Origin: Vulcanimicrobiota bacterium
GTDB taxonomy: Bacteria > Vulcanimicrobiota > Xenobia > Xenobiales > QWHO01
Reading direction: 5' to 3'
Assembly (NCBI GenBank): GCA_963169765.1
Contig: CAUJEN010000184.1
Location: 16,468-80,467, forward strand
DNA length: 64,000 bases
In this document: piece by piece, positions 13 to 9,422 of the stretch
How positions within the stretch are numbered: the first letter of the stretch is position 1
Layout of the letters: every line of letters starts with the position of its first letter
Program-made: the position numbers and the translations under genes
Notes under the pieces: model-generated
Database searches by the model: none
Told to the model about the DNA's origin: nothing
Seen by the model: the letters and a program-made list of their open reading frames with translations, nothing else

Positions 13-1401
13 TTGCTTGAGCGAATCGGCGACCTCGAGTCGCGCCTGAAAAACCTGGATCTGCTCGAGAAGCTCGAGAGCCGCGTCAAAGAGCTTGAGG
101 TCGAGCGCTTCGATAGCCTGGAGAGCAAGCTCAAGAAAATCGAGCGCGAGAGGCTCGATGAGCTGGACAACAAGCTAGCGGCCATGGCCGGCTTGATCTC
201 CCAGATCAAAGCCAGCGAGCCGGCGGCAGCGGCAGCGCCCCCGACCCCGGCTGACGGCGCCGACAAGCTGGCCCCTCCCGCCGATCTCGATTTCTCTCTC
301 GACGACTTGCTCTACGTCGTGCTCAAGCACGAGGCCAGCGAGCTTTTATTGAAGACGGGCTCACCTTCGGTCGCCCGCCTGCATGGCCAGTGGGTACCCA
401 TCGGCGATCACATTCTGCGCCCCGAAGACTGCCGCTCGCTGATCTTGAATGCCATGCCGGCCGAGCATCGCAAGCTCTTGCTCGATCGCAAGGATGTGAC
501 CGTGGCCTGCAGTGCACTGGGCGTGCGTTTCCGGTTGGACGCCTACCTGCAGCGCGGCAGCGTTTGTGGCGTCTTCAAGCCTCTGGCGGCCCGCGTGCCT
601 GCCCTGGCCGACCTGGGCCTGCCGGTGCTGCTCGAGCAGCTGGCCGGACACCGCGACGGCCTCATCCTGGTGGCCGGTCCCCCCCAGAGCGGCAAGACCA
701 CCACCCTGGCCTCGCTGGTCGATTCCATCAATGCCACCCGTCGGATCCAGATCTTCACCATCGAGGATCCGATCGAGTACTACCACCAGGACAAGAAGAG
801 CGTGGTCAGCCAGCGCGAGGTTGGCACCGACGCCAACAGTTTTGCCGATGCGCTCAACCACGCCCTGCGCCAGCAGGCCGATGTGGTGGCCCTCAGCGAG
901 CTGCGCGATGCCGAGACGATGTATGCCTCGCTGGTCGCCGCCGAAAGTGGCCACCTGGTCCTCTCGAGTCTGGCCTCGCCTACCACCGTGGGGGCCATTG
1001 AGTGGATCCTGAACTCCTTCGAGGGTGCCGCTCGAGAGACCGTCCAGATATTGCTCGCTTCCACTCTGAGGGCCGTCATCTCGCTGCGCATGCTGCCTCG
1101 AGCCGACGGCAAGGGCAACGTGGTTGCCACTGAAATCCTGGTGGTCAACGACCTGGTGCGCAACTACCTGGCTGAGGGGATGGTCAACCTGCTCGGGCCC
1201 CTGCTCGAGGCCGGCTCTTCCGAGCACCTGCATCCCTTCCGTGAATCCATCGCTCGCCTTCAAGACGTGGGTTTGGTGGCCCGCGAGGGCGCTCCGCGGG
1301 TGGCCGCCGTCGAGCCTTCGGTGGAGGCGGCCGAGCCTCAGGTCTCTCAGCTGAAGTTGGAAGAGGCTCGCATCGACGATACCATGATGGGATGGCTCTG
1401 A
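13..1401 (+). CDS. PilT/PilU-family (type IV pilus retraction-like) ATPase with ~100-aa N-terminal coiled-coil extension; reading frame is open to window position 1, so the 5' end may be partial
   Basis: Walker A GPPQSGKTT, PilT-type motifs IEDPIEY and His-box HLVLSSL, PilT N-domain LDDLLYVVLKHEASELLL; N-term LExxLKxLE heptad-like repeats; first codon in track is TTG at 13. Confidence 0.8.
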   Translation: MLERIGDLESRLKNLDLLEKLESRVKELEVERFDSLESKLKKIERERLDELDNKLAAMAGLISQIKASEPAAAAAPPTPADGADKLAPPADLDFSLDDLLYVVLKHEASELLLKTGSPSVARLHGQWVPIGDHILRPEDCRSLILNAMPAEHRKLLLDRKDVTVACSALGVRFRLDAYLQRGSVCGVFKPLAARVPALADLGLPVLLEQLAGHRDGLILVAGPPQSGKTTTLASLVDSINATRRIQIFTIEDPIEYYHQDKKSVVSQREVGTDANSFADALNHALRQQADVVALSELRDAETMYASLVAAESGHLVLSSLASPTTVGAIEWILNSFEGAARETVQILLASTLRAVISLRMLPRADGKGNVVATEILVVNDLVRNYLAEGMVNLLGPLLEAGSSEHLHPFRESIARLQDVGLVAREGAPRVAAVEPSVEAAEPQVSQLKLEEARIDDTMMGWL

Positions 1402-1946: not shown

Positions 1947-4034
1947 TTAGTTCCAGACCGTGTTGCGCTGCTCGGCGGGGCGCACCATCGGCTCGCCTTC
2001 CTGCAGCCCGAAGGCCCGGTGGAACGGCTCGAAGTTGGCCAGCGTGCCGTTGACCCGGAACTTGGGTAGCGGATGGGGATCGGTCTGCATGATCAGCCGC
2101 GCGTACTCGGGTCGCATGTTGGTGGCCCACGACTTGGCAAAGCTCAGGAAGAAGCGCTGGTCGTCGCTGAATCCGTCAGGGGAGGGGCGGGGGGCTTTGC
2201 CTTCCGAGGCCAGCTTGTAGGCCTCGTAGGCCAGCTCCAGACCGCCCAGGTCGGCCAGGGCCTCGCCCAGCACCAGGTTGCCGTCGCATGGGATGCCGTC
2301 GTAGGAGAACTCGCTGAACTGGCGGGCCACCCCGGCGGTGCGCTGGTGGAAGCGGGACAGATCCTCCTCGGTCCACCAGTTGCTCAGGTTGCCCCGGGCG
2401 TCGAACTGGGCGCCCTCGTCATCGAACCCGTGCCCGATCTCGTGCCCGATGACCGCCCCGATGGCCCCGTAGTTGGTGGCGTCGTCGGCCCTGACGTCGA
2501 AGTAGGATCCGGCCAGAATGCCGGCCGGGAAAACGATCTCATTGGCCACAGGCTGGTAATAGGCGTTGATGGTCGGAGGCGTCATCTCCCAGCGGGTCCG
2601 GTCCACCGGCTCTCCGACGCTGGCCAGGCGTTTCTCCACCGCAAAGCGACTGGCGGCCAGCACGTTGTCGGCGTAGACCCCGCGCTCGATGCTCAAGCCG
2701 GTGTAGTCGGTCCATTTGTCCGGGTAGCCGATCTTCTCGGTGAACGAGTCCAGCTTCTCAAGGGCGCGCTGGCGGGTCTCCTCGGTCATCCAGGGCAACC
2801 GCTCGAGCTTGTCCTCCAGCACCAGCTTGACGTTCTTCACCATGGCCAGCACTTTCGTCTTGGCCTCGGGCGGGAAGTGGCGCTCGACGTACTTCTGGCC
2901 CAGCGCCTCCCCCAGGCCCTCGTCCACCGCCTGAAGCACCCGCTTGAAGCGTGGGGGAGCCGCCTTGAGACCCTTCATCTGCTTGCCCTTGAACTCGAAG
3001 TTCTGATCCTCGAAAGCTGAGGAGAGGTAGGGCGCGGTAGCATTCAGCGTCTGCCACTTCAAGTAGGTCTTCCAGTCCTCCAGAGGCACCTGTTTGAGCG
3101 TCTCCTCCAGCTTGCTGAAGAAGCCTGGGGTGGCCACATTGAGCGAGTCCACGTCCGGGCGACCCAGGCCGGCGAAGTAACCGTCCCAGTCCAGGCTGGG
3201 GGTGAGCGCCGCCAGATCGCTCCGGGTCATGGGGTTGTAGAGGGCGTTCGGGTCGCGCATCTCGGCACGAGACAGAGAGCCCTCGGCCAGGCGGGTCTCC
3301 ACCGCCAGCACTCGGTCGGCCGCGCTCGGGTCCTGGCCCATCAGCTCGAACATGCGAGCCACGTGGCCGCGGTAGGCCTCGCGGATGCGCGCCTTGTCCT
3401 CGTCTTTCTCGGTGTAGTACTCGCGGTCGGGCAGGCCCAGGCCGCCCTGGAAGGCCTCGGCGATGACCCGGGTGCTGTCTTTGACGTCCACCGAGGCCCC
3501 GAAGCTGAAGAGCCCGGGGATGCCGTGGCGGTGAAGCTCGGCGGCGGCGCCGGTCAGCTCGCTCAGGCTGCCAGCGGCGTCAATGCGAGCGAAGAAAGGC
3601 TGGAGCGGGGTGAGGCCGGCCTCCTCGATGCGGACCGTGTCCATGCCCGAGGCGTAGAAGTCGCCCAACTTCTGCTCGTTGGAGCCGGGCGGGCCCGAGC
3701 GCACCGAAAGCTCTTCGATCAGCGCTTTCAGGTTGGCTTCTACCTGCTGGCCCAGCACCTGGTCCACGCCGAAACGGGCCTGATCGTCGGGTATGGGGTG
3801 GCGGGCCAGATAGCCGCCCACGGCATGCTCGAAGAAGTCGTCGCCGGGCCTGATGGCCGGGTTGAGATCGGAGCGATCCACCCCCGTGAAGGTGGGTTGC
3901 GCGAACAACCGCGGCCTGATCAAGCCGCTGTCCAGGGCCGTGCCCGGCGTGAACCGGTCGCGGCAGCTGCTGCAGGAGTGCCGGGGCAGAGTGCTCAGTC
4001 GATGGGTGGATATCGTGGTTTCAGGGACCCGCAT
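1947..4034 (-). CDS. M13 family zinc metallopeptidase (PepO/neprilysin-like endopeptidase)
   Basis: HEIGHGFDDEG zincin motif, NAYY, GENIAD-like ENxADxGG (GEALADLGG), C-terminal PxVWN tail; 695 aa typical of M13; N-terminus has no clear signal peptide so start uncertain. Confidence 0.85.
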   Translation of the reverse strand: MRVPETTISTHRLSTLPRHSCSSCRDRFTPGTALDSGLIRPRLFAQPTFTGVDRSDLNPAIRPGDDFFEHAVGGYLARHPIPDDQARFGVDQVLGQQVEANLKALIEELSVRSGPPGSNEQKLGDFYASGMDTVRIEEAGLTPLQPFFARIDAAGSLSELTGAAAELHRHGIPGLFSFGASVDVKDSTRVIAEAFQGGLGLPDREYYTEKDEDKARIREAYRGHVARMFELMGQDPSAADRVLAVETRLAEGSLSRAEMRDPNALYNPMTRSDLAALTPSLDWDGYFAGLGRPDVDSLNVATPGFFSKLEETLKQVPLEDWKTYLKWQTLNATAPYLSSAFEDQNFEFKGKQMKGLKAAPPRFKRVLQAVDEGLGEALGQKYVERHFPPEAKTKVLAMVKNVKLVLEDKLERLPWMTEETRQRALEKLDSFTEKIGYPDKWTDYTGLSIERGVYADNVLAASRFAVEKRLASVGEPVDRTRWEMTPPTINAYYQPVANEIVFPAGILAGSYFDVRADDATNYGAIGAVIGHEIGHGFDDEGAQFDARGNLSNWWTEEDLSRFHQRTAGVARQFSEFSYDGIPCDGNLVLGEALADLGGLELAYEAYKLASEGKAPRPSPDGFSDDQRFFLSFAKSWATNMRPEYARLIMQTDPHPLPKFRVNGTLANFEPFHRAFGLQEGEPMVRPAEQRNTVWN

Positions 4035-4797
4035 GCTCGGTCTTCTTCTCCTCGCGAAAGATGTCTTTGAACTTCTCCCAGAGATCGTGCAGTTTTCGTT
4101 TGTGGTTGAGCCGCCAGTCGTTGAGCGCCTCGCGGTGCTGGTAGATGGTGCGCACGCTGGCCAGGGCCCCGTTGGCCACCAGGGCTGGCACCTGAAACGG
4201 CCCCGGAACGGTCAGGGTGGCAAAGGCGGCCGCCCCCATGCCGGCCTCCAGCATGCCTACGATCTTGTCTTCCCGGTTGCCCTCGCGGATGCCGCGGTGC
4301 ATCTTGACCAGCCCCGAGCTCAGGTTGAGCCCGCCGTGGATCAGACCGCAGGCGATGCCTACTCCCCCCGGCGTGAGCTGGCCGGTGTGCAGCGAGTTCC
4401 AGGTCAGGGCTCCGGCGTATCCTCCGCGGGCCACCTCGCCCAGCCCCGAGAGCACGCTGGCCGGGTCTTTCTTCTTGACGCCATCGATTGTCTCCAGCAC
4501 CCCGGCCGCCCCCAGGGCAACCGTACCGACCACCCCCCCCATGGTGGCGGTCAGCCCGATGAGCGGGATCAGGGTGTCGAAGATGGCGAACTTGAGGAAG
4601 CTGGGGATAAAGAGCAGAGCTCTGGGAATGCGCGCGATCGTGTTGGCCGCATTGCCGATGCGACGGGCCCACTTCTCTTTGGGGTCCTCGTCCTCTTCGG
4701 GCGGCTTCTTCTTCTTCTTCTTGTCTTTCTCCAGCGCGGTGGCCGCCAGGGGCGAGCGCACGCTGGGAAAGCCAGCATATGCCTGGCCTACCTGCAC
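4021..4797 (-). CDS. Hypothetical membrane protein with lysine-rich N-terminus
   Basis: Protein-like composition, KKKKKK tract, 3-4 hydrophobic helices (LLFIPSFLKFAIFDTLIPLIGL, AAFATLTVPGPFQVPALVA); overlaps M13 peptidase start by 14 bp. Confidence 0.45.
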   Translation of the reverse strand: MQVGQAYAGFPSVRSPLAATALEKDKKKKKKPPEEDEDPKEKWARRIGNAANTIARIPRALLFIPSFLKFAIFDTLIPLIGLTATMGGVVGTVALGAAGVLETIDGVKKKDPASVLSGLGEVARGGYAGALTWNSLHTGQLTPGGVGIACGLIHGGLNLSSGLVKMHRGIREGNREDKIVGMLEAGMGAAAFATLTVPGPFQVPALVANGALASVRTIYQHREALNDWRLNHKRKLHDLWEKFKDIFREEKKTEHAGP

Positions 4798-5080
4798 CTT
4801 TTCAGTCTACGCTGAGGGTCTGAAAGGATTCTTACGGCCAGGCCCTGACGGGTTTGAGTTGCGCTATTCCGGGGCCTCTCTGCATCAGAGTCGTTGGAGC
4901 GGCACGCGCGCGTTGAACGCTTCAGGAGTTGGCGCGGCGCCGTTCAACAGGAATCCCGCGCGTTCTGATTCTGAGCTGGTCAACGCGCGGGAGTGTAGCT
5001 GGGAACGCAGCGAGGGGGGAGCTCGTCTCGTCCCAGTGCTCTGGTGTCGCCTCCAGGAGTCAGGTATCAGCCAACCCGGC

Positions 5081-6199
5081 TCAGCCGTGGCGTCGGGCCA
5101 GTCGATTGCGGGCGGCCGCCTGGATCAGACCTTCCTCGAGCTGGGGGTGGGGATAGGCCCTCTCGAACCCGGCGCGCAGACGGCGGGCGAACCCTTCGGC
5201 CCATTCGCGTCGCCGGGAGAGCTCCCGGCTCCCACGGATCGAGAATCCGGTCAGGTCGGTAGGCAGGTCGTCGGCTCCGAGCATCACCTCGCCGGCGATC
5301 AGGCCGGTCCAGCCTGTCAGGGTCTGGATCAGCACGCCCCGCCGGATCAGGTGGAGCTGGGCGGGCAGGATCGGGTCGACGTACAGCCCCCCGGCGGCGC
5401 CATAAGCGGTATCGATGTGGCTGAGGGGATCTTGCTGGGCCGAGCGGGGTGCGCCCAGCCGGAACTGGCCGGCGCCCGGTCCTTCCACATCGCGGAGCTC
5501 CCAGGCCAGATGACAACGTCGGATGGCAAAGGTCTGCTGCAGCCCCCTGCTGTGAGAGAGGACGGTGTAGGTGAGATATTTTCCGGGCCAGCTGAGCTGC
5601 CAGCGCGAGGCGCCGCTTTCTTCCCCGAACCAGGGCTCGATGACCTCTCCGTCGACCGTCAGCTTCATGGGAGCAAAACGGGCTTTCTCTTTGAGAAGCA
5701 AACTCTCAGGAAGCTGGCGCTTGAGCCAGCTGCCCCAGCCCAGGGCCCGTCTCGCCGTGATCCGGGTCTCCCGGCTTCCCCCCTGCCTGAGCTCGGCCCG
5801 GTCCGCGCTCAGGTACAGAATCTGCCCCCCGGATTCCAGGACCACCTCCGAACCCGGAAAGCCAAGCACGCTGTTGACCCCGATGGCCAGCTCCGACCAG
5901 GCGGGCTGATCCCCCGACTCGTCCAGGAGGCAGGTGAAAAAGCTTTGCAGCTGGTCGCTCGTCAGAGTTGTGCCGTCGTGCGCAAGGCTCAGAGCCCGCG
6001 GAGACGAGCGAACCTCACACCGGGTGGCTCCCGCCGCCACGGCCGACTGAACCCATTTGAGCGCGAAATAGCAGCGATCAGGAAGCTGGAAGCTGCGCAA
6101 CTTCCCCAGGGCGTGACGCCAGTCGAGCGTAAAGACTCCCGCCGAGTCCAGCGCTCCCTGTCCTCGCAGCTCCTGCAGCACCTGATCCAACTCGTCCAC
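5081..6199 (-). CDS. Hypothetical protein with degenerate GHKL/MutL-like ATPase N-terminal domain (predicted pseudo-ATPase)
   Basis: ALKWVQSAVAAGATRCEV resembles MutL/Hsp90 Bergerat N-box ELVENSLDAGATRIDI but lacks catalytic E/N/D; followed by DGTTL and G-rich GFPGSEVVLESGG segment; 6-bp gap to upstream gene. Confidence 0.35.
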   Translation of the reverse strand: MDELDQVLQELRGQGALDSAGVFTLDWRHALGKLRSFQLPDRCYFALKWVQSAVAAGATRCEVRSSPRALSLAHDGTTLTSDQLQSFFTCLLDESGDQPAWSELAIGVNSVLGFPGSEVVLESGGQILYLSADRAELRQGGSRETRITARRALGWGSWLKRQLPESLLLKEKARFAPMKLTVDGEVIEPWFGEESGASRWQLSWPGKYLTYTVLSHSRGLQQTFAIRRCHLAWELRDVEGPGAGQFRLGAPRSAQQDPLSHIDTAYGAAGGLYVDPILPAQLHLIRRGVLIQTLTGWTGLIAGEVMLGADDLPTDLTGFSIRGSRELSRRREWAEGFARRLRAGFERAYPHPQLEEGLIQAAARNRLARRHG

Positions 6200-6205
6200 A
6201 GGCCG

Positions 6206-7024
6206 TCACTCCGGCTCCCCTGTGGGAGGATAAGGACCCCCGCTCGCAGGCCGGCTCAGCACCAATCCCAACCCGCGCCAGCAGGCTTCCATCTCCCGGT
6301 GCGAGAGACTTCGCTTCCCATCCAGCGGATCGCCCACCACCAATCGTTCCGGGCTCACCTCCAGCACGGCCACGTAGTGATCGACGAAGGGCCCCAGGCG
6401 CACGACCGCGAGCGAATGGACCGGCAGCTCACTGGCCCGGGTGAAGCGGCGAAACTCGCACCGGACCTCGGGATGAAGCCGCGTCAGGCCCTCAGCCAGC
6501 TGATCGCAGGGTGTCCCCGTGGCCGGGCAGGTGCCGCATTCCAGCGCCAGAGCCCGCTCGTCTGCTTTCACCCCGAGGCCCTTGAGTGCCGTGACGGCAG
6601 CCGCCGGTCCGCAGGTGTAGCTGGTGCTCTGGCGGCAGACCTCGTCGCGGTCGAAGCTAGTCTGCAAAGCCTCGATCTGCGAGCGGGACAGGGCGGGGCT
6701 CAGGAAGGGATAGACTCCCGCGTAACCCGCCAGAATCACCGTGAGAATGACCACCGCCCTGCGGTTGCGAGCCGATGGCACTCGCGTGAGCGGCGCGATC
6801 AGCAGCACCGCGATCGAGAGAGCGAGCAGCACGAACTCGCGCCGACCGGCCATGAGGATCGTCCAGGGCGGCTCGAAGTCGGAGTTGGTCTGGCGCACCC
6901 AGCCGATGGTCAGGATGAGCGCCAGGGGCCCGAGATAGCCGGCCAGCCAGAACCGGGTCCGGCCCAGCCGGTAGGCCGCCAGAGCGCAGGCCAGGGTTGC
7001 CAGGGTCACGAGCAGCGCCAGCAT
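6206..7024 (-). CDS. Membrane protein with C-terminal peptidase C39-like (papain-fold, double-glycine-peptidase-like) domain
   Basis: 4 N-terminal TM helices then QSTSYTCGPAAAVTALKGLG (Cys motif of C39 family) and downstream His/Asp region VDHYVAVLEV...GDPLDG. Confidence 0.5.
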   Translation of the reverse strand: MLALLVTLATLACALAAYRLGRTRFWLAGYLGPLALILTIGWVRQTNSDFEPPWTILMAGRREFVLLALSIAVLLIAPLTRVPSARNRRAVVILTVILAGYAGVYPFLSPALSRSQIEALQTSFDRDEVCRQSTSYTCGPAAAVTALKGLGVKADERALALECGTCPATGTPCDQLAEGLTRLHPEVRCEFRRFTRASELPVHSLAVVRLGPFVDHYVAVLEVSPERLVVGDPLDGKRSLSHREMEACWRGLGLVLSRPASGGPYPPTGEPE

Positions 7025-7073
7025 GGTGGCAAAGTTGGCCAGAATCGTCGGTGAACCTCCACCCCACGGCCGA

Positions 7074-9422
7074 TTATTCGATCACCAGCAGCGACGCCTT
7101 GACCTGGTCGCGCCCGATGCGCTCGTCCACCTCGCGGCAGCGCTCGCCCAGCACCGGCGGCAGTCCGGGAGCCCGCGACCACTGCCTGGCCATGTCCAGC
7201 GTGCGGCGCAGGGCGCGCACCACGTCGCCCTCGTCCATGCCGGCCCGGTCGCGCACCTCCTCCCAACTCGCCCCCTCGGCCCAGGCCTCGGCCAGGCCCG
7301 AGAAGACCGGGTTGACCATGGCCGGCACCTCCACCTCGAAGCGCTTCTGCCAGCGCAGCACCGCCTCGGCTACCTTCTGCACCTCACCCACGGCCCGGCG
7401 GGCCGGTGTGGACGGAGCCAGCCGGATGCCCGGCACCTGGCGCGTGTCCTCGGTCAACAGTGCGGTCATCACCGCCGCCAGCTGGGCGGCGTTGAGGCGC
7501 TCGAGAATGCCCGAGCGGGCCACCTCGGTCAAGAGCACCACGTTGGTGCCGCGCAGGTAGGCGGCCAGCAGGCCGAGCTCGGTTGGCCTGTCGTCTTGCA
7601 TGTAGCCCAGCGCCTCGAGCAAGTCCTTAAGGCGGGTGAACTGCTTCCAGTAGGGCGTCTCCACCCGCCGAGCCAGCTTCCCCAGGTCGCCCTTCTCGCG
7701 GGTCAGCTCGGCCAGCATGGCGTGGTTGTGCCCGCAGGGACGCCGAACCGGGCACTCGTGGCAGGGGGTGCGCTCCATCATTCCCCGCACGTCTTGCTTC
7801 TGGTCCTTGAGCTGGGCGATGGCTTCCTTGAGGCCGCGATTTCCCGGGCGCATCCCCCGGCTCATGGCCTCGATCTGACGGTGCAGGCTGCGCTCCTTGT
7901 CCTTGAGCTTGTGATAGGCGGGAAGGTCGCCGGGACGCTCGGGGCAGAGCGGGCGCGACAGCTCCTCCACGCGCTTTGCCAGGCTCTGCGAGCGGGTGCC
8001 CAGCGAGCCCTTGACCCGCTCGGCCAGGAACTGGCCGAAGGAGCGCTCCACCAGCTGGCGACACTCTTCCAGCGAGTGGTGCTGCAACAAATTGAGCACC
8101 ATCCCGTAGCTGGGAGTGAAGCGCGACAGCAGGGGATCGGCCTCGGCCCGGGCCAGCTTGGCCGCCTCCTCGACTCGTTCCATGGGATGGTGCACCACCA
8201 CCACGTGGCCGACCGTGTCCATCCCGCGCCGGCCGGCTCGGCCCGACATCTGCAAAAACTCGCTGGCGGTCATGGGCCGGTGGCCCTCGTCGGAATACTT
8301 GCTGATGGCCGAGATGACGGTGGTGCGGGCGGGCATGTTGATGCCCGCGGCCAGGGTCTCGGTGGCGAACACGCACTTGATCAGGCCCTGCTGGAAGAGT
8401 CGCTCCACCAGCGACTTCCAGGGGGGGAGCAACCCGGCGTGGTGGGCCGCCAGGCCCTGGCGCAGGTAGGGGAGGTGGGGATGATCGATCAAGAAGGGGT
8501 TATCGCGCAGGAAGTCCTTGAGCGAGGCTTTGATGGCATCGGCCTCGGCCAGGGTCAGGGTGACCGCGCCCTGAGAGGCGCGCAGGGCCAGCTCGCACCC
8601 CCGGCGCGAGAAGACGAAGTAGATGGCCGGCAGCATCTCACGCTCGGCCAGGGCTCGCACCACGTTCTCAGGGCTGACCTTCTCGGGGCGGTCCTCCTTC
8701 TTGGGCTTGCGAAAGCCGTCTCGCTTGGGAGGGGGAGAGATCTGGCGCAGGGCCGGATTGAGCGAGCCCGACTCGCTCAGGAGCGGCTTGAGCGACTTGA
8801 AGTAGTAGTAGAACTTCAGGGGAACCGGGCGATAGTCGCTCTGGATCAGGCGGGTGGGGGCGTGGGTGGCCGAGATCCAGTCCACCAGGTCGGGGGCGTT
8901 GGCCACCGTAGCCGACAGAGCCACCAGCTGGATCTCGCGCGGGCAGTAGATGATCGACTCCTCCCACACGGTGCCCCGCTCGACGTCGTTCATGTAGTGG
9001 CATTCGTCCAGGATCACCGAGACCACGCCCTGCAGGTTGGCGTGCACATCGCCCAGGATGGTGCCATAGAGCATGTTGCGGAAGACCTCGGTGGTCATCA
9101 CCACGATTTGGGCATCGCGGCGCACCGAGATGTCCCCGGTCAACAGGCCCACCTGGTCTTCTCCGAACAGCTGCTGCAGGTCGTGGAACTTCTGGTTGGA
9201 GAGCGCCTTCAGGGGCGTGGTGTAGAAGCAGCGCAGCTGGCGCTGGTGGGCCCGGTGCAGAGCATACTCGGCGATGGCCGTCTTGCCCGAGCCGGTGGGA
9301 GCGCACACGACCACGTTCTCGCCGGCCGCAATGGACTCCATGGCCTCTACCTGGAAGTCGTCCAGAGGGAACGGAAAGAGGCGCGCGATGTCGGGCGAGG
9401 GCGCCCTGGGGGCTGCGGGCAT
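7074..9422 (-). CDS. Ski2-like DEAD/DEAH-box RNA helicase (HelY/Mtr4-like), start at ATG 9422 (MPAAPRAP...)
   Basis: Motif I CAPTGSGKT, motif II DECHY, motif III SAT, QxxGRAGRRG motif VI, C-terminal DSHCT-like region; track ORF extends to 10538 only by reading antisense through the neighbouring gene. Confidence 0.85.
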   Translation of the reverse strand: MPAAPRAPSPDIARLFPFPLDDFQVEAMESIAAGENVVVCAPTGSGKTAIAEYALHRAHQRQLRCFYTTPLKALSNQKFHDLQQLFGEDQVGLLTGDISVRRDAQIVVMTTEVFRNMLYGTILGDVHANLQGVVSVILDECHYMNDVERGTVWEESIIYCPREIQLVALSATVANAPDLVDWISATHAPTRLIQSDYRPVPLKFYYYFKSLKPLLSESGSLNPALRQISPPPKRDGFRKPKKEDRPEKVSPENVVRALAEREMLPAIYFVFSRRGCELALRASQGAVTLTLAEADAIKASLKDFLRDNPFLIDHPHLPYLRQGLAAHHAGLLPPWKSLVERLFQQGLIKCVFATETLAAGINMPARTTVISAISKYSDEGHRPMTASEFLQMSGRAGRRGMDTVGHVVVVHHPMERVEEAAKLARAEADPLLSRFTPSYGMVLNLLQHHSLEECRQLVERSFGQFLAERVKGSLGTRSQSLAKRVEELSRPLCPERPGDLPAYHKLKDKERSLHRQIEAMSRGMRPGNRGLKEAIAQLKDQKQDVRGMMERTPCHECPVRRPCGHNHAMLAELTREKGDLGKLARRVETPYWKQFTRLKDLLEALGYMQDDRPTELGLLAAYLRGTNVVLLTEVARSGILERLNAAQLAAVMTALLTEDTRQVPGIRLAPSTPARRAVGEVQKVAEAVLRWQKRFEVEVPAMVNPVFSGLAEAWAEGASWEEVRDRAGMDEGDVVRALRRTLDMARQWSRAPGLPPVLGERCREVDERIGRDQVKASLLVIE

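What the first reader, a model, noticed from the sequence alone, without database searches (positions are those of the whole stretch)
5081..7024. Coupled pair: membrane C39-like peptidase-domain protein and degenerate MutL/GHKL-like pseudo-ATPase
6206-7024 encodes 4 TM helices plus a papain-fold C39-like domain (TCGPAAAVTALKGLG). Unlike C39 bacteriocin exporters it has no ABC transporter attached. Six bp downstream, 5081-6199 encodes a protein whose N-terminus mimics the MutL/Hsp90 Bergerat ATP-binding N-box (ALKWVQSAVAAGATRCEV versus ELVENSLDAGATRIDI). It has lost the catalytic Glu/Asn/Asp, so it is predicted to be an inactive GHKL fold. A stand-alone C39-like membrane peptidase with a GHKL pseudo-enzyme partner is not a described module. 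It could be a peptide-processing/signalling or defence-related pair.
Basis: partly seen in the sequence, partly recalled or inferred. Interest (0 to 1): 0.5.

Follow-up and report, generated by a model that had tools for sequence, protein, structure and literature searches.

The report
Membrane C39 peptidase beside dead Hsp90-like protein
Both genes are real and were read correctly (an intact membrane-anchored C39 cysteine peptidase, followed 6 bp later by an Hsp90-like protein that has lost its ATP-handling residues), but they sit together in only one species, so they are two separate, uncharacterised families and not a new two-gene module.

Summary

A profile comparison with a canonical sacsin/Hsp90-type GHKL protein (95.7% probability) shows that every ATP-handling residue is replaced. 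These are the catalytic Glu, the Mg-binding Asn, the adenine-binding Asp, the glycine lid and the middle-domain Arg. The GHKL pseudo-ATPase reading therefore holds, but the protein is Hsp90/sacsin-like rather than MutL-like.

The claim of a coupled module does not hold:
- None of 80 other C39-family loci carries the GHKL-like gene.
- None of 11 other GHKL-like loci carries a C39 gene.
- A syntenic 79% C39 orthologue has an unrelated gene downstream.

The commonest C39 neighbour is an M3 oligopeptidase. The 372-aa protein belongs to a large family (about 2,400 clusters) that Pfam and NCBIfam do not cover. That family is the most interesting residue of this finding.

The parts
6206..7024 (-). 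Gene for a 272-aa membrane-anchored C39 cysteine peptidase (4TM + C39).
   Evidence: ORF. Pfam PF03412 at 41.4 bits, above the gathering score of 22. 214+ homologues of about 270 aa with the same architecture. dN/dS about 0.30 against the 79% orthologue.
6698..7024 (-). N-terminal membrane domain, residues 1-109, with four hydrophobic segments.
   Evidence: Kyte-Doolittle segments at 1-21, 25-44, 61-86 and 88-109. Loops 1 and 3 are rich in K/R (means 2.97 and 4.08 over 38 sequences), which favours an N-out/C-out topology. Family-invariant residues are G21, W26, G29, P33, G60, P106 and P110.
6248..6640 (-). C39 papain-fold domain, residues 129-259. The catalytic codons are Gln132 (6629-6631), Cys138 (6611-6613), His216 (6377-6379) and Asp232 (6329-6331).
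   Evidence: Pfam envelope 129-259. Q132, C138, H216 and D232 are invariant in the 38-sequence alignment A3. The closest solved relatives are the PCAT1 and ComA peptidase domains, E 3.5e-6.
6209..6247 (-). 13-residue C-terminal extension of the C39 protein (ASGGPYPPTGEPE) that is absent from orthologues. It marks the likely rearrangement breakpoint.
   Evidence: The orthologues P0004 (89% identity) and P0005 (79%) are 259 aa and end at ...LVLSR(P/R). The sequence downstream of the 89% orthologue differs from the window junction.
6200..6212 (-). Junction: GGAG (6209-6212), the stop codon TGA (6206-6208) and a 6-bp spacer (6200-6205) before the GTG start.
   Evidence: Sequence read. No terminator-like site lies between the genes. 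Co-transcription is inferred, not shown.
5081..6199 (-). Gene for a 372-aa cytoplasmic Hsp90/sacsin-like GHKL pseudo-ATPase (N + middle domains + helical hairpin).
6089..6199 (-). Family-specific N-terminal segment, residues 1-37, with the motif G15..DS.G21.F23TLD26...A30..K33. It is the most conserved part of the family.
   Evidence: Counts in the 152-sequence alignment: G15 140, G21 150, F23 150, D26 136, A30 146, K33 138. This segment lies outside the region aligned to the canonical GHKL protein. Its pLDDT is only 57-67.
5630..6088 (-). Bergerat-fold (GHKL) domain, residues about 38-190. The degenerate N-box is at 6011-6070 (residues 44-63).
   Evidence: hhalign to the canonical HATPase_c_3 protein gives these pairs: K48 for the catalytic Glu, S52 for the Mg-binding Asn, A55 for Asp, H74-D75-G76-T77-T78 for DxGxG, and S102-ELAIG107 for GKFGIG. 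Across the family, position 52 is never Asn and position 74 is never among the common Asp positions.
5240..5587 (-). Middle (transducer, S5-like) domain, residues about 205-320, with the motif DDLPTDLTGF (310-319).
5087..5230 (-). C-terminal two-helix hairpin, residues 324-371. It is a possible dimerisation element.
   Evidence: AF2 helices 324-348 and 354-371, pLDDT about 84-95. The dimerisation role is inference only.

Best explanation
The locus holds two unrelated genes of independent distribution. A recent rearrangement placed them side by side in one Candidatus Xenobia species ('bacterium CPR1'), where they are probably co-transcribed. They are not a conserved functional module.

Gene 1 is an active member of a widespread, uncharacterised family of stand-alone C39 cysteine peptidases. 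Each has four transmembrane helices followed by a C39 domain with an intact Gln-Cys-His-Asp set. By the positive-inside rule the catalytic domain probably faces the periplasm. My inference is that it clips exported or envelope peptides or proteins at small-residue sites. In about 30% of family loci the fragments could then be handled by a co-encoded M3 oligopeptidase.

Gene 2 is a cytoplasmic Hsp90/sacsin-like two-domain module (Bergerat fold plus transducer). Like its whole family, it has lost the residues needed to bind Mg-ATP and hydrolyse it. My inference is that it works without nucleotide, as a dimeric clamp or scaffold. Its functional surface would be the near-invariant N-terminal G..DS.G.FTLD...A..K segment, which sits where GHL ATPases carry their N-terminal dimerisation strap.

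Shown: the gene models, the folds, the residue substitutions and the lack of pair conservation. Inferred: the topology, the substrates, the clamp or scaffold role and co-transcription.
For: Identity of gene 1:
- Pfam C39 above threshold.
- Invariant Q132, C138, H216 and D232 in 38 homologues.
- More than 214 protein clusters and more than 411 metagenome loci with the same roughly 270-aa architecture.
- Loop K/R densities favour an N-out/C-out topology.
- A Peptidase_M3 gene lies directly downstream on the same strand in 18 of 60 loci.

Identity of gene 2:
- hhalign to a canonical HATPase_c_3/SACS protein gives 95.65% probability and maps all lost residues.
- Family-wide counts show Asn is never present at the Mg-binding site.
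- 2,407 representative clusters match at E<=1e-3.
- No Pfam or NCBIfam model covers any of the 49 members tested.

Independence of the two genes:
- The 79% C39 orthologue keeps the upstream synteny (PilZ, acyltransferase, DEAD/DSHCT helicase) but has an unrelated 626-aa gene downstream.
- The closest GHKL-like homologue in that same genome lies on another contig, beside T2SSF.
- The 73% GHKL-like homologue sits next to a kinase-receiver gene, a DUF433/DUF5615 pair and two helicases, with no C39.
- 0 of 80 C39 loci (526 kb) carry a GHKL-like ORF.
- 0 of 11 other GHKL-like loci carry a C39 gene.
- The window C39 has a 13-residue C-terminal extension, and the sequence downstream of the 89% orthologue differs.
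Against: - The 6-bp spacing with a GGAG, the shared strand and the absence of a terminator are what a functional operon would look like.
- The arrangement is stable across 18 contigs from several samples, although all carry the identical protein and so represent one species.
- A lineage-specific functional link therefore cannot be excluded.
- Peptidase genes lie near several other family members: M13 in the window and in L015, calpain-like C2 in L020, and YkuD in L018. This could hint at a looser protease connection.
- Loss of the canonical residues does not prove loss of nucleotide or ligand binding. D75, G76, N109 and E165 remain highly conserved.
- The topology rests on a hand-made charge count, not on a dedicated predictor.
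Confidence: 0.65

Rival explanations
1. The two genes form a genuine but lineage-restricted module. In this reading the pseudo-GHKL protein regulates, scaffolds or is processed by the membrane C39 peptidase in this Xenobia species.
For: A 6-bp gap with a Shine-Dalgarno-like GGAG, the same strand and no terminator. The arrangement is identical on 18 contigs from several samples. Other family members lie near peptidases.
Against: There is no co-occurrence in any other genome examined, in either direction. The adjacency looks recent, because it comes with an altered C39 3' end. The C39 domain is probably periplasmic, while the 372-aa protein has no signal peptide (sequence). The 18 contigs all represent one species.
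Confidence: 0.15
2. The 372-aa protein is still a working nucleotide-dependent GHKL enzyme or chaperone that uses a non-canonical active site.
For: The Bergerat fold and transducer domain are well preserved. D75, G76, N109 and E165 are conserved across the family, and about 22% of members keep a Glu at the catalytic-base position.
Against: In the window protein all five canonical functional elements are replaced: Glu to Lys48, Asn to Ser52, Asp to His74, the glycine lid to SELAIG, and Arg to Gly318. No family member has the Mg-binding Asn.
Confidence: 0.1
3. The 372-aa protein is part of an anti-phage defence system, in the manner of MORC or paraMORC GHKL ATPases.
Against: There is no PADLOC hit. 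The catalytic residues are lost. Neighbourhoods vary and are mostly housekeeping genes. One genome carries at least three paralogues, including giant forms.
Confidence: 0.07

Closest known systems
C39 peptidase domains of peptidase-containing ABC transporters (PCAT1, ComA, CvaB, LahT)
   Same: Same Pfam family, PF03412. Same catalytic Gln/Cys/His/Asp set. They are the closest solved structures by sequence (4RY2/7N87, 3K8U; E 3.5e-6 to 2e-5).
   Different: There is no ABC transporter. The domain is C-terminal to a private 4-TM anchor instead of N-terminal to a 6-TM/NBD core. It probably faces the periplasm rather than the cytoplasm. No double-glycine substrate is encoded nearby.
FapD, the stand-alone periplasmic C39 peptidase of the Fap amyloid system
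   Same: It is a stand-alone C39 peptidase acting outside the cytoplasm without an attached transporter.
   Different: The NCBIfam FapD model scores 14 bits against a cut-off of 330. There are no fap genes nearby. The window protein has a 4-TM anchor.
Hsp90 family (HtpG, TRAP1, GRP94) N-terminal and middle domains
   Different: The catalytic Glu, Mg-binding Asn, adenine-binding Asp, lid glycines and Arg380 equivalent are all lost. There is no Hsp90 C-terminal domain, only a two-helix hairpin. A family-specific 37-residue N-terminal motif is present. The HtpG NCBIfam model is not matched.
Bacterial sacsin-like / HATPase_c_3 GHKL proteins (e.g. L106:4484-6019)
   Same: Closest relatives detectable by sequence (hhalign 95.65%, E 1.1e-8, 244 columns). 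In one locus such a gene overlaps the start of a giant family member.
   Different: Those proteins keep ELVQNALDA, DxGxG, GKFGIGF and LSR. The window protein and its family do not.
MutL/MLH N-terminal ATPase and MORC ATPases
   Different: The structural scores are lower than for Hsp90. There is no MutL C-terminal dimerisation/endonuclease domain and no MORC accessory domains. The catalytic residues are lost.

Membership tests
Peptidase family C39 (Pfam PF03412) | Match to the family HMM above the curated gathering score | tested here: met
   41.4 bits against a cut-off of 22, E 1.6e-10, residues 129-259.
Peptidase family C39 (Pfam PF03412) | Catalytic Cys and His, with the oxyanion Gln and the orienting Asp | tested here: met
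   Q132, C138, H216 and D232 are present and invariant in 38 homologues.
Peptidase family C39 (Pfam PF03412) | Cleavage after a double-glycine-type leader, with the substrate encoded nearby | tested here: inconclusive
   A regex scan of 481 small ORFs found no convincing GG-leader peptide near the pair. Activity cannot be tested in silico.
Peptidase-containing ABC transporter (PCAT / bacteriocin exporter) | C39 domain fused N-terminally to a 6-TM ABC permease and a nucleotide-binding domain | tested here: not met
   The protein ends at residue 272. The order is 4 TM then C39. No ORF in the window carries both LSGGQ and Walker A.
FapD (NCBIfam NF058616) | Equivalog HMM above its cut-off | tested here: not met
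   14 bits against a cut-off of 330.
GHKL (Bergerat-fold) superfamily | Bergerat alpha/beta sandwich fold | tested here: met
GHKL (Bergerat-fold) superfamily | Sequence-profile homology to a bona fide member | tested here: met
   hhalign of A2 against the HATPase_c_3/SACS protein L106:4484-6019 gives probability 95.65% and E 1.1e-8. Direct Pfam and NCBIfam HMMs do not reach it.
GHKL (Bergerat-fold) superfamily | Motif I (N-box): catalytic Glu and Mg-binding Asn | tested here: not met
   K48 and S52 occupy these positions. Across the family, position 52 is A (96) or S (34) and never N. Position 48 is K48/E34/R12/H12.
GHKL (Bergerat-fold) superfamily | Motif II DxGxG (adenine-binding Asp) and motif III glycine-rich ATP lid | tested here: not met
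   H74-D75-G76-T77-T78 aligns to D-F-G-E-G, and SELAIG aligns to GKFGIG. Across the family, position 74 is F (75) or H (31).
GHKL (Bergerat-fold) superfamily | ATP binding and hydrolysis | not testable with these tools
   This needs the purified protein. Loss is predicted from the substitutions.
Hsp90/HtpG chaperones | N-terminal GHKL domain followed by a middle domain carrying the catalytic Arg (R380 in yeast Hsp82) | tested here: not met
   The N+M architecture is present by fold, but G318 occupies the Arg position. Across the family that position is Q, G, E or H.
Hsp90/HtpG chaperones | C-terminal dimerisation domain, and a match to the HtpG family model | tested here: not met
   The protein ends at residue 372 with two helices. 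The NCBIfam HtpG model gives one marginal hit among 49 members (E 0.022).
MutL/MLH mismatch-repair proteins | GHL ATPase N-domain plus a C-terminal dimerisation (endonuclease) domain | tested here: not met
Known anti-phage defence systems (PADLOC-DB v2) | Match to any defence-protein HMM | tested here: not met
   No families matched either protein at E<=1.

The most novel reading that the evidence does not exclude
The 372-aa protein represents a large family (about 2,400 clusters at 50% identity) that Pfam and NCBIfam do not cover. Its members are Hsp90/sacsin-derived pseudo-ATPases in which the Mg-binding Asn is absent from all 152 aligned members. In its place the family carries a near-invariant N-terminal G..DS.G.FTLD...A..K motif. 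The family occurs both as roughly 370-450-aa stand-alone proteins and as the N-terminal head of 1,200-2,260-aa giants, with several paralogues per genome. It could be a new class of nucleotide-independent clamp, chaperone or regulator. Such a protein might sometimes pair with an active GHKL paralogue (as in L106) and might be functionally tied to proteolysis, given the C39, M13 (twice), calpain-like and YkuD neighbours.
Probability: 0.2. Interest if true: 0.6.

Novelty: new variant of a known kind. Interest (0 to 1): 0.3.

Why it matters
The proposed new module does not exist as a conserved unit, so no new system should be catalogued from this pair. Two things remain useful.

First, there is a very widespread 4TM-C39 peptidase family with no transporter. 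This contradicts the textbook statement that PF03412 domains are parts of ABC exporters. The family's most frequent partner is an M3 oligopeptidase.

Second, there is a large family of Hsp90/sacsin-like pseudo-ATPases that current domain libraries miss entirely. Naming and annotating it would remove thousands of 'hypothetical protein' labels in Myxococcota, Vulcanimicrobiota and other phyla. It would also give a bacterial example of a GHKL pseudo-enzyme whose conserved N-terminal motif can be tested directly.

Tried and rejected
- AF2 on a 2-sequence alignment gave pLDDT 36 and was discarded.
- phmmer and hmmsearch of the 372-aa protein and of profile A2 against PDB sequences gave only chance hits such as dynein, histone H5 and mannose-6-phosphate isomerase.
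- The word-indexed homologue search found only 2-4 relatives, even with a profile. The exhaustive HMMER search was needed.
- Pfam, NCBIfam and PADLOC gave nothing for the 372-aa protein or for 49 family members.
These were used only as leads.
- The afdb50 fold library was unavailable.
- The search for related loci with A2 failed for lack of a conserved stretch. With A4 it returned only 6 genome loci.
- I tested whether the 626-aa gene downstream of the syntenic C39 orthologue is a fusion of the window's 372-aa and 258-aa proteins. It is not.
- I tested whether the L015 family member is the orthologue of the window genome's second paralogue. It is only 28% identical over the N-domain, and the flanking small genes are unrelated.
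- A double-glycine leader search found only a Tat-like protein at 37016-37351.
- Rfam found nothing in 3500-7600 at E<=0.1.
- tblastn of a family member against PLSDB plasmids found no match.
- Literature searches for inactive bacterial GHKL/Hsp90-like proteins, for stand-alone membrane C39 peptidases and for C39 with oligoendopeptidase F found no description of either family.
Full report
**Organism and locus.** The window has 61-70% GC. It matches contigs of 'bacterium CPR1', which NCBI lists under unclassified Bacteria. Its nearest relatives are Candidatus Xenobia, phylum Vulcanimicrobiota (Eremiobacterota). All genes from 10.5 kb down to 1.9 kb around the finding lie on the minus strand. 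In order they are:
- a DEAD/DSHCT helicase;
- the C39 gene (7024-6206);
- the 372-aa gene (6199-5081);
- a 283-bp gap;
- a 258-aa membrane protein (4797-4021);
- an overlapping M13 peptidase gene (4034-1947).

**Checking the observation.** Both ORFs, the 6-bp spacer and the quoted motifs are present. A GGAG lies 9 nt before the GTG start, and no terminator-like site separates the genes. The 945-aa ORF on the plus strand (4217-7054) is a high-GC shadow. The minus-strand genes have homologues and low dN/dS, 0.19/0.78 and 0.14/0.47.

**The C39 protein.**
- Pfam PF03412 scores above threshold.
- In an alignment of 38 homologues, Q132, C138, H216 and D232 are invariant. Several membrane-domain residues are invariant too, so this is an active enzyme and a coherent orthologous family.
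- The family is large.
- The closest solved structures are the PCAT1 and ComA peptidase domains. Only residues 130-268 match them, so the 4-TM anchor has no solved relative.
- Loops 1 and 3 carry about 7 K/R in 17 residues, against about 5.8 in roughly 40 residues elsewhere. This favours an N-out/C-out topology with a periplasmic C39 domain. This is an inference from a simple count.
- There is no ABC transporter signature in the window and no double-glycine leader ORF nearby.
- A 2023 survey of papain-like peptidases describes PF03412 only as fused to ABC transporters (PMC10318531). This stand-alone architecture therefore appears undescribed, although databases already label members 'predicted double-glycine peptidase'.

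**The 372-aa protein.**
- No curated HMM library and no PDB sequence search recognises it.
- An exhaustive HMMER search found 2,407 representative clusters (602 at E<=1e-10). Most align to residues 1-190, and several align over the full length. The hits range from about 350-450 aa to 1,200-2,260 aa.
- With 49 short members as the alignment, AF2 gave pLDDT 86.3 and pTM 0.87.
- The 50 best Foldseek hits are all Hsp90-family chains, E about 1e-11.
- The protein is therefore a GHL-type two-domain module (Bergerat fold plus transducer), followed by a two-helix hairpin.

**Sequence-level link and residue mapping.** In one family locus (L106), a canonical HATPase_c_3/SACS gene overlaps the start of a 1,448-aa family member. 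The family profile aligns to that canonical protein with 95.65% probability (E 1.1e-8, 244 columns). The mapping is as follows.

| Canonical GHKL element | Residue(s) in the window protein |
|---|---|
| Catalytic Glu | K48 |
| Mg-binding Asn | S52 |
| N-box Asp | A55 |
| D-x-G-x-G | H74-D75-G76-T77-T78 |
| GKFGIG lid | SELAIG |
| Middle-domain L-S-R | L-T-G318 |

Among 152 aligned family members:
- position 52 is Ala or Ser and never Asn;
- position 74 is mostly Phe or His;
- position 318 is Gln, Gly, Glu or His;
- position 48 is Glu in only about 22% of members.

The most conserved residues lie instead in a family-specific N-terminal segment: G15, G21, F23, D26, A30 and K33, each in more than 89% of members. 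This segment precedes the region homologous to the canonical GHKL protein and is modelled with low confidence. The whole family is therefore predicted to be catalytically dead. The affinity is to Hsp90/sacsin rather than MutL.

**Is the pair a module? No.**
- A Xenobia genome with a 79% identical C39 keeps the upstream synteny (PilZ, acyltransferase, helicase). Downstream it has an unrelated 626-aa gene. Its closest GHKL-like gene (45% identity) is on another contig, next to T2SSF.
- The 73% identical GHKL-like homologue lies among a kinase-receiver gene, a DUF433/DUF5615 pair and two helicases, with no C39.
- Eighty further C39-family loci (526 kb, 48 of them with at least 1.2 kb downstream) contain no GHKL-like ORF.
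- Eleven further GHKL-like loci contain no C39 gene.
- Orthologous C39 proteins are 259 aa. The window copy has 13 extra C-terminal residues, and the DNA after the stop codon of an 89% orthologue is unrelated to the window junction. This points to a recent rearrangement breakpoint at the 3' end of the C39 gene.
- The 18 contigs that share the arrangement all encode the identical protein, so they represent one species.

**What the neighbours do show.**
- The only recurrent partner of the C39 family is a Peptidase_M3 gene directly downstream on the same strand. It occurs in 18 of 60 loci with enough flank and is present somewhere in 26 of the 80 loci. That M3 protein seems to lack a signal peptide.
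- The GHKL-like family has no constant partner.
- The CPR1 genome carries at least three paralogues: 372 aa, 398 aa (about 7.5 kb beyond the window's left end) and 1,267 aa.
- An M13 peptidase lies within about 1 kb of a family member both in the window and in L015, where the M13 is 51% identical. I could not explain this, and orthology of the flanking genes was not supported.

**Verdict.** The claim of a novel coupled module is not supported. What remains of interest is the unannotated Hsp90/sacsin-like pseudo-ATPase family and the stand-alone 4TM-C39 family with its M3 partner.

Noticed in passing
window 4217-7054 (+): A 945-aa open reading frame runs antisense across both genes of the finding. 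Homology, Pfam and dN/dS all support the minus-strand genes, so this is a high-GC shadow ORF.
   Followed up: partly
L009 12570-13766 (same genome, about 7.5 kb beyond the window's left end); L107 5421-9224: The same genome encodes at least two more paralogues of the GHKL-like family. One is a 398-aa protein that matches the family profile better than the window copy (384 bits). The other is a 1,267-aa giant (P0274, DYH09_02375).
   Followed up: partly
L106 4484-6022 and 6001-10347: A canonical HATPase_c_3/sacsin-like GHKL gene (ELVQNALDA, DDFGEGM, GKFGIGF) overlaps by 22 bp the start of a 1,448-aa member of the pseudo-GHKL family. This may be an active/pseudo-enzyme pair. A transglutaminase-like gene and a MoxR AAA+ gene lie nearby.
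   Followed up: partly
L005 6001-8613; L058 7001-9674 and 16 further loci: The 4TM-C39 family has a Peptidase_M3 (PepF-like) gene directly downstream on the same strand in 18 of 60 loci. This is a conserved pair that I did not find described in the literature searches made here. In L005 a rhomboid protease gene follows.
   Followed up: partly
window 1947-4034 (-); L015 1-1653: An M13 (neprilysin-like) peptidase lies within about 1 kb of a GHKL-like family member in two distant genomes. The M13 proteins are 51% identical, while the GHKL-like proteins are only 24% identical. L020 has a calpain-like C2 peptidase, and L018 a YkuD transpeptidase, next to their family members.
   Followed up: partly
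L007 773-8578: The 73% homologue of the 372-aa protein sits beside three features on the opposite strand: a DUF433/DUF5615 toxin-antitoxin-like pair, a PLD-DEAD-DUF3427 helicase (973 aa) and a HIT-DEAD helicase (991 aa). The context looks like a defence island.
   Followed up: no
window 4021-4797 (-): A 258-aa protein with a Lys/Glu-rich N-terminal stretch (KDKKKKKKPPEEDEDPKEK) and Gly-rich hydrophobic segments. It has no Pfam, NCBIfam or PADLOC hit and overlaps the M13 peptidase gene by 14 bp. A 283-bp gap with no Rfam match precedes it.
   Followed up: partly
L024 4622-5893 and 10001-14020: Two family paralogues lie 4 kb apart. In the 1,340-aa one, the profile segment 282-369 (the end of the middle domain plus a helix) matches three more times, which suggests internal repeats in the giant forms.
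   Followed up: no
window 37016-37351 (-): A small Pro-rich protein with a twin-arginine-like N-terminus (RKKRRQFLADMLFAGGG) was the only hit of the double-glycine leader regex. It is probably a Tat signal, not a GG leader.
   Followed up: no
window 13-1401 (+): This is the C-terminal part of a 638-651-aa protein with a PilT/GspE-like Walker A (GPPQSGKTTT) and a long N-terminal coiled-coil-like region. The precomputed Pfam record shows no family for it.
   Followed up: no
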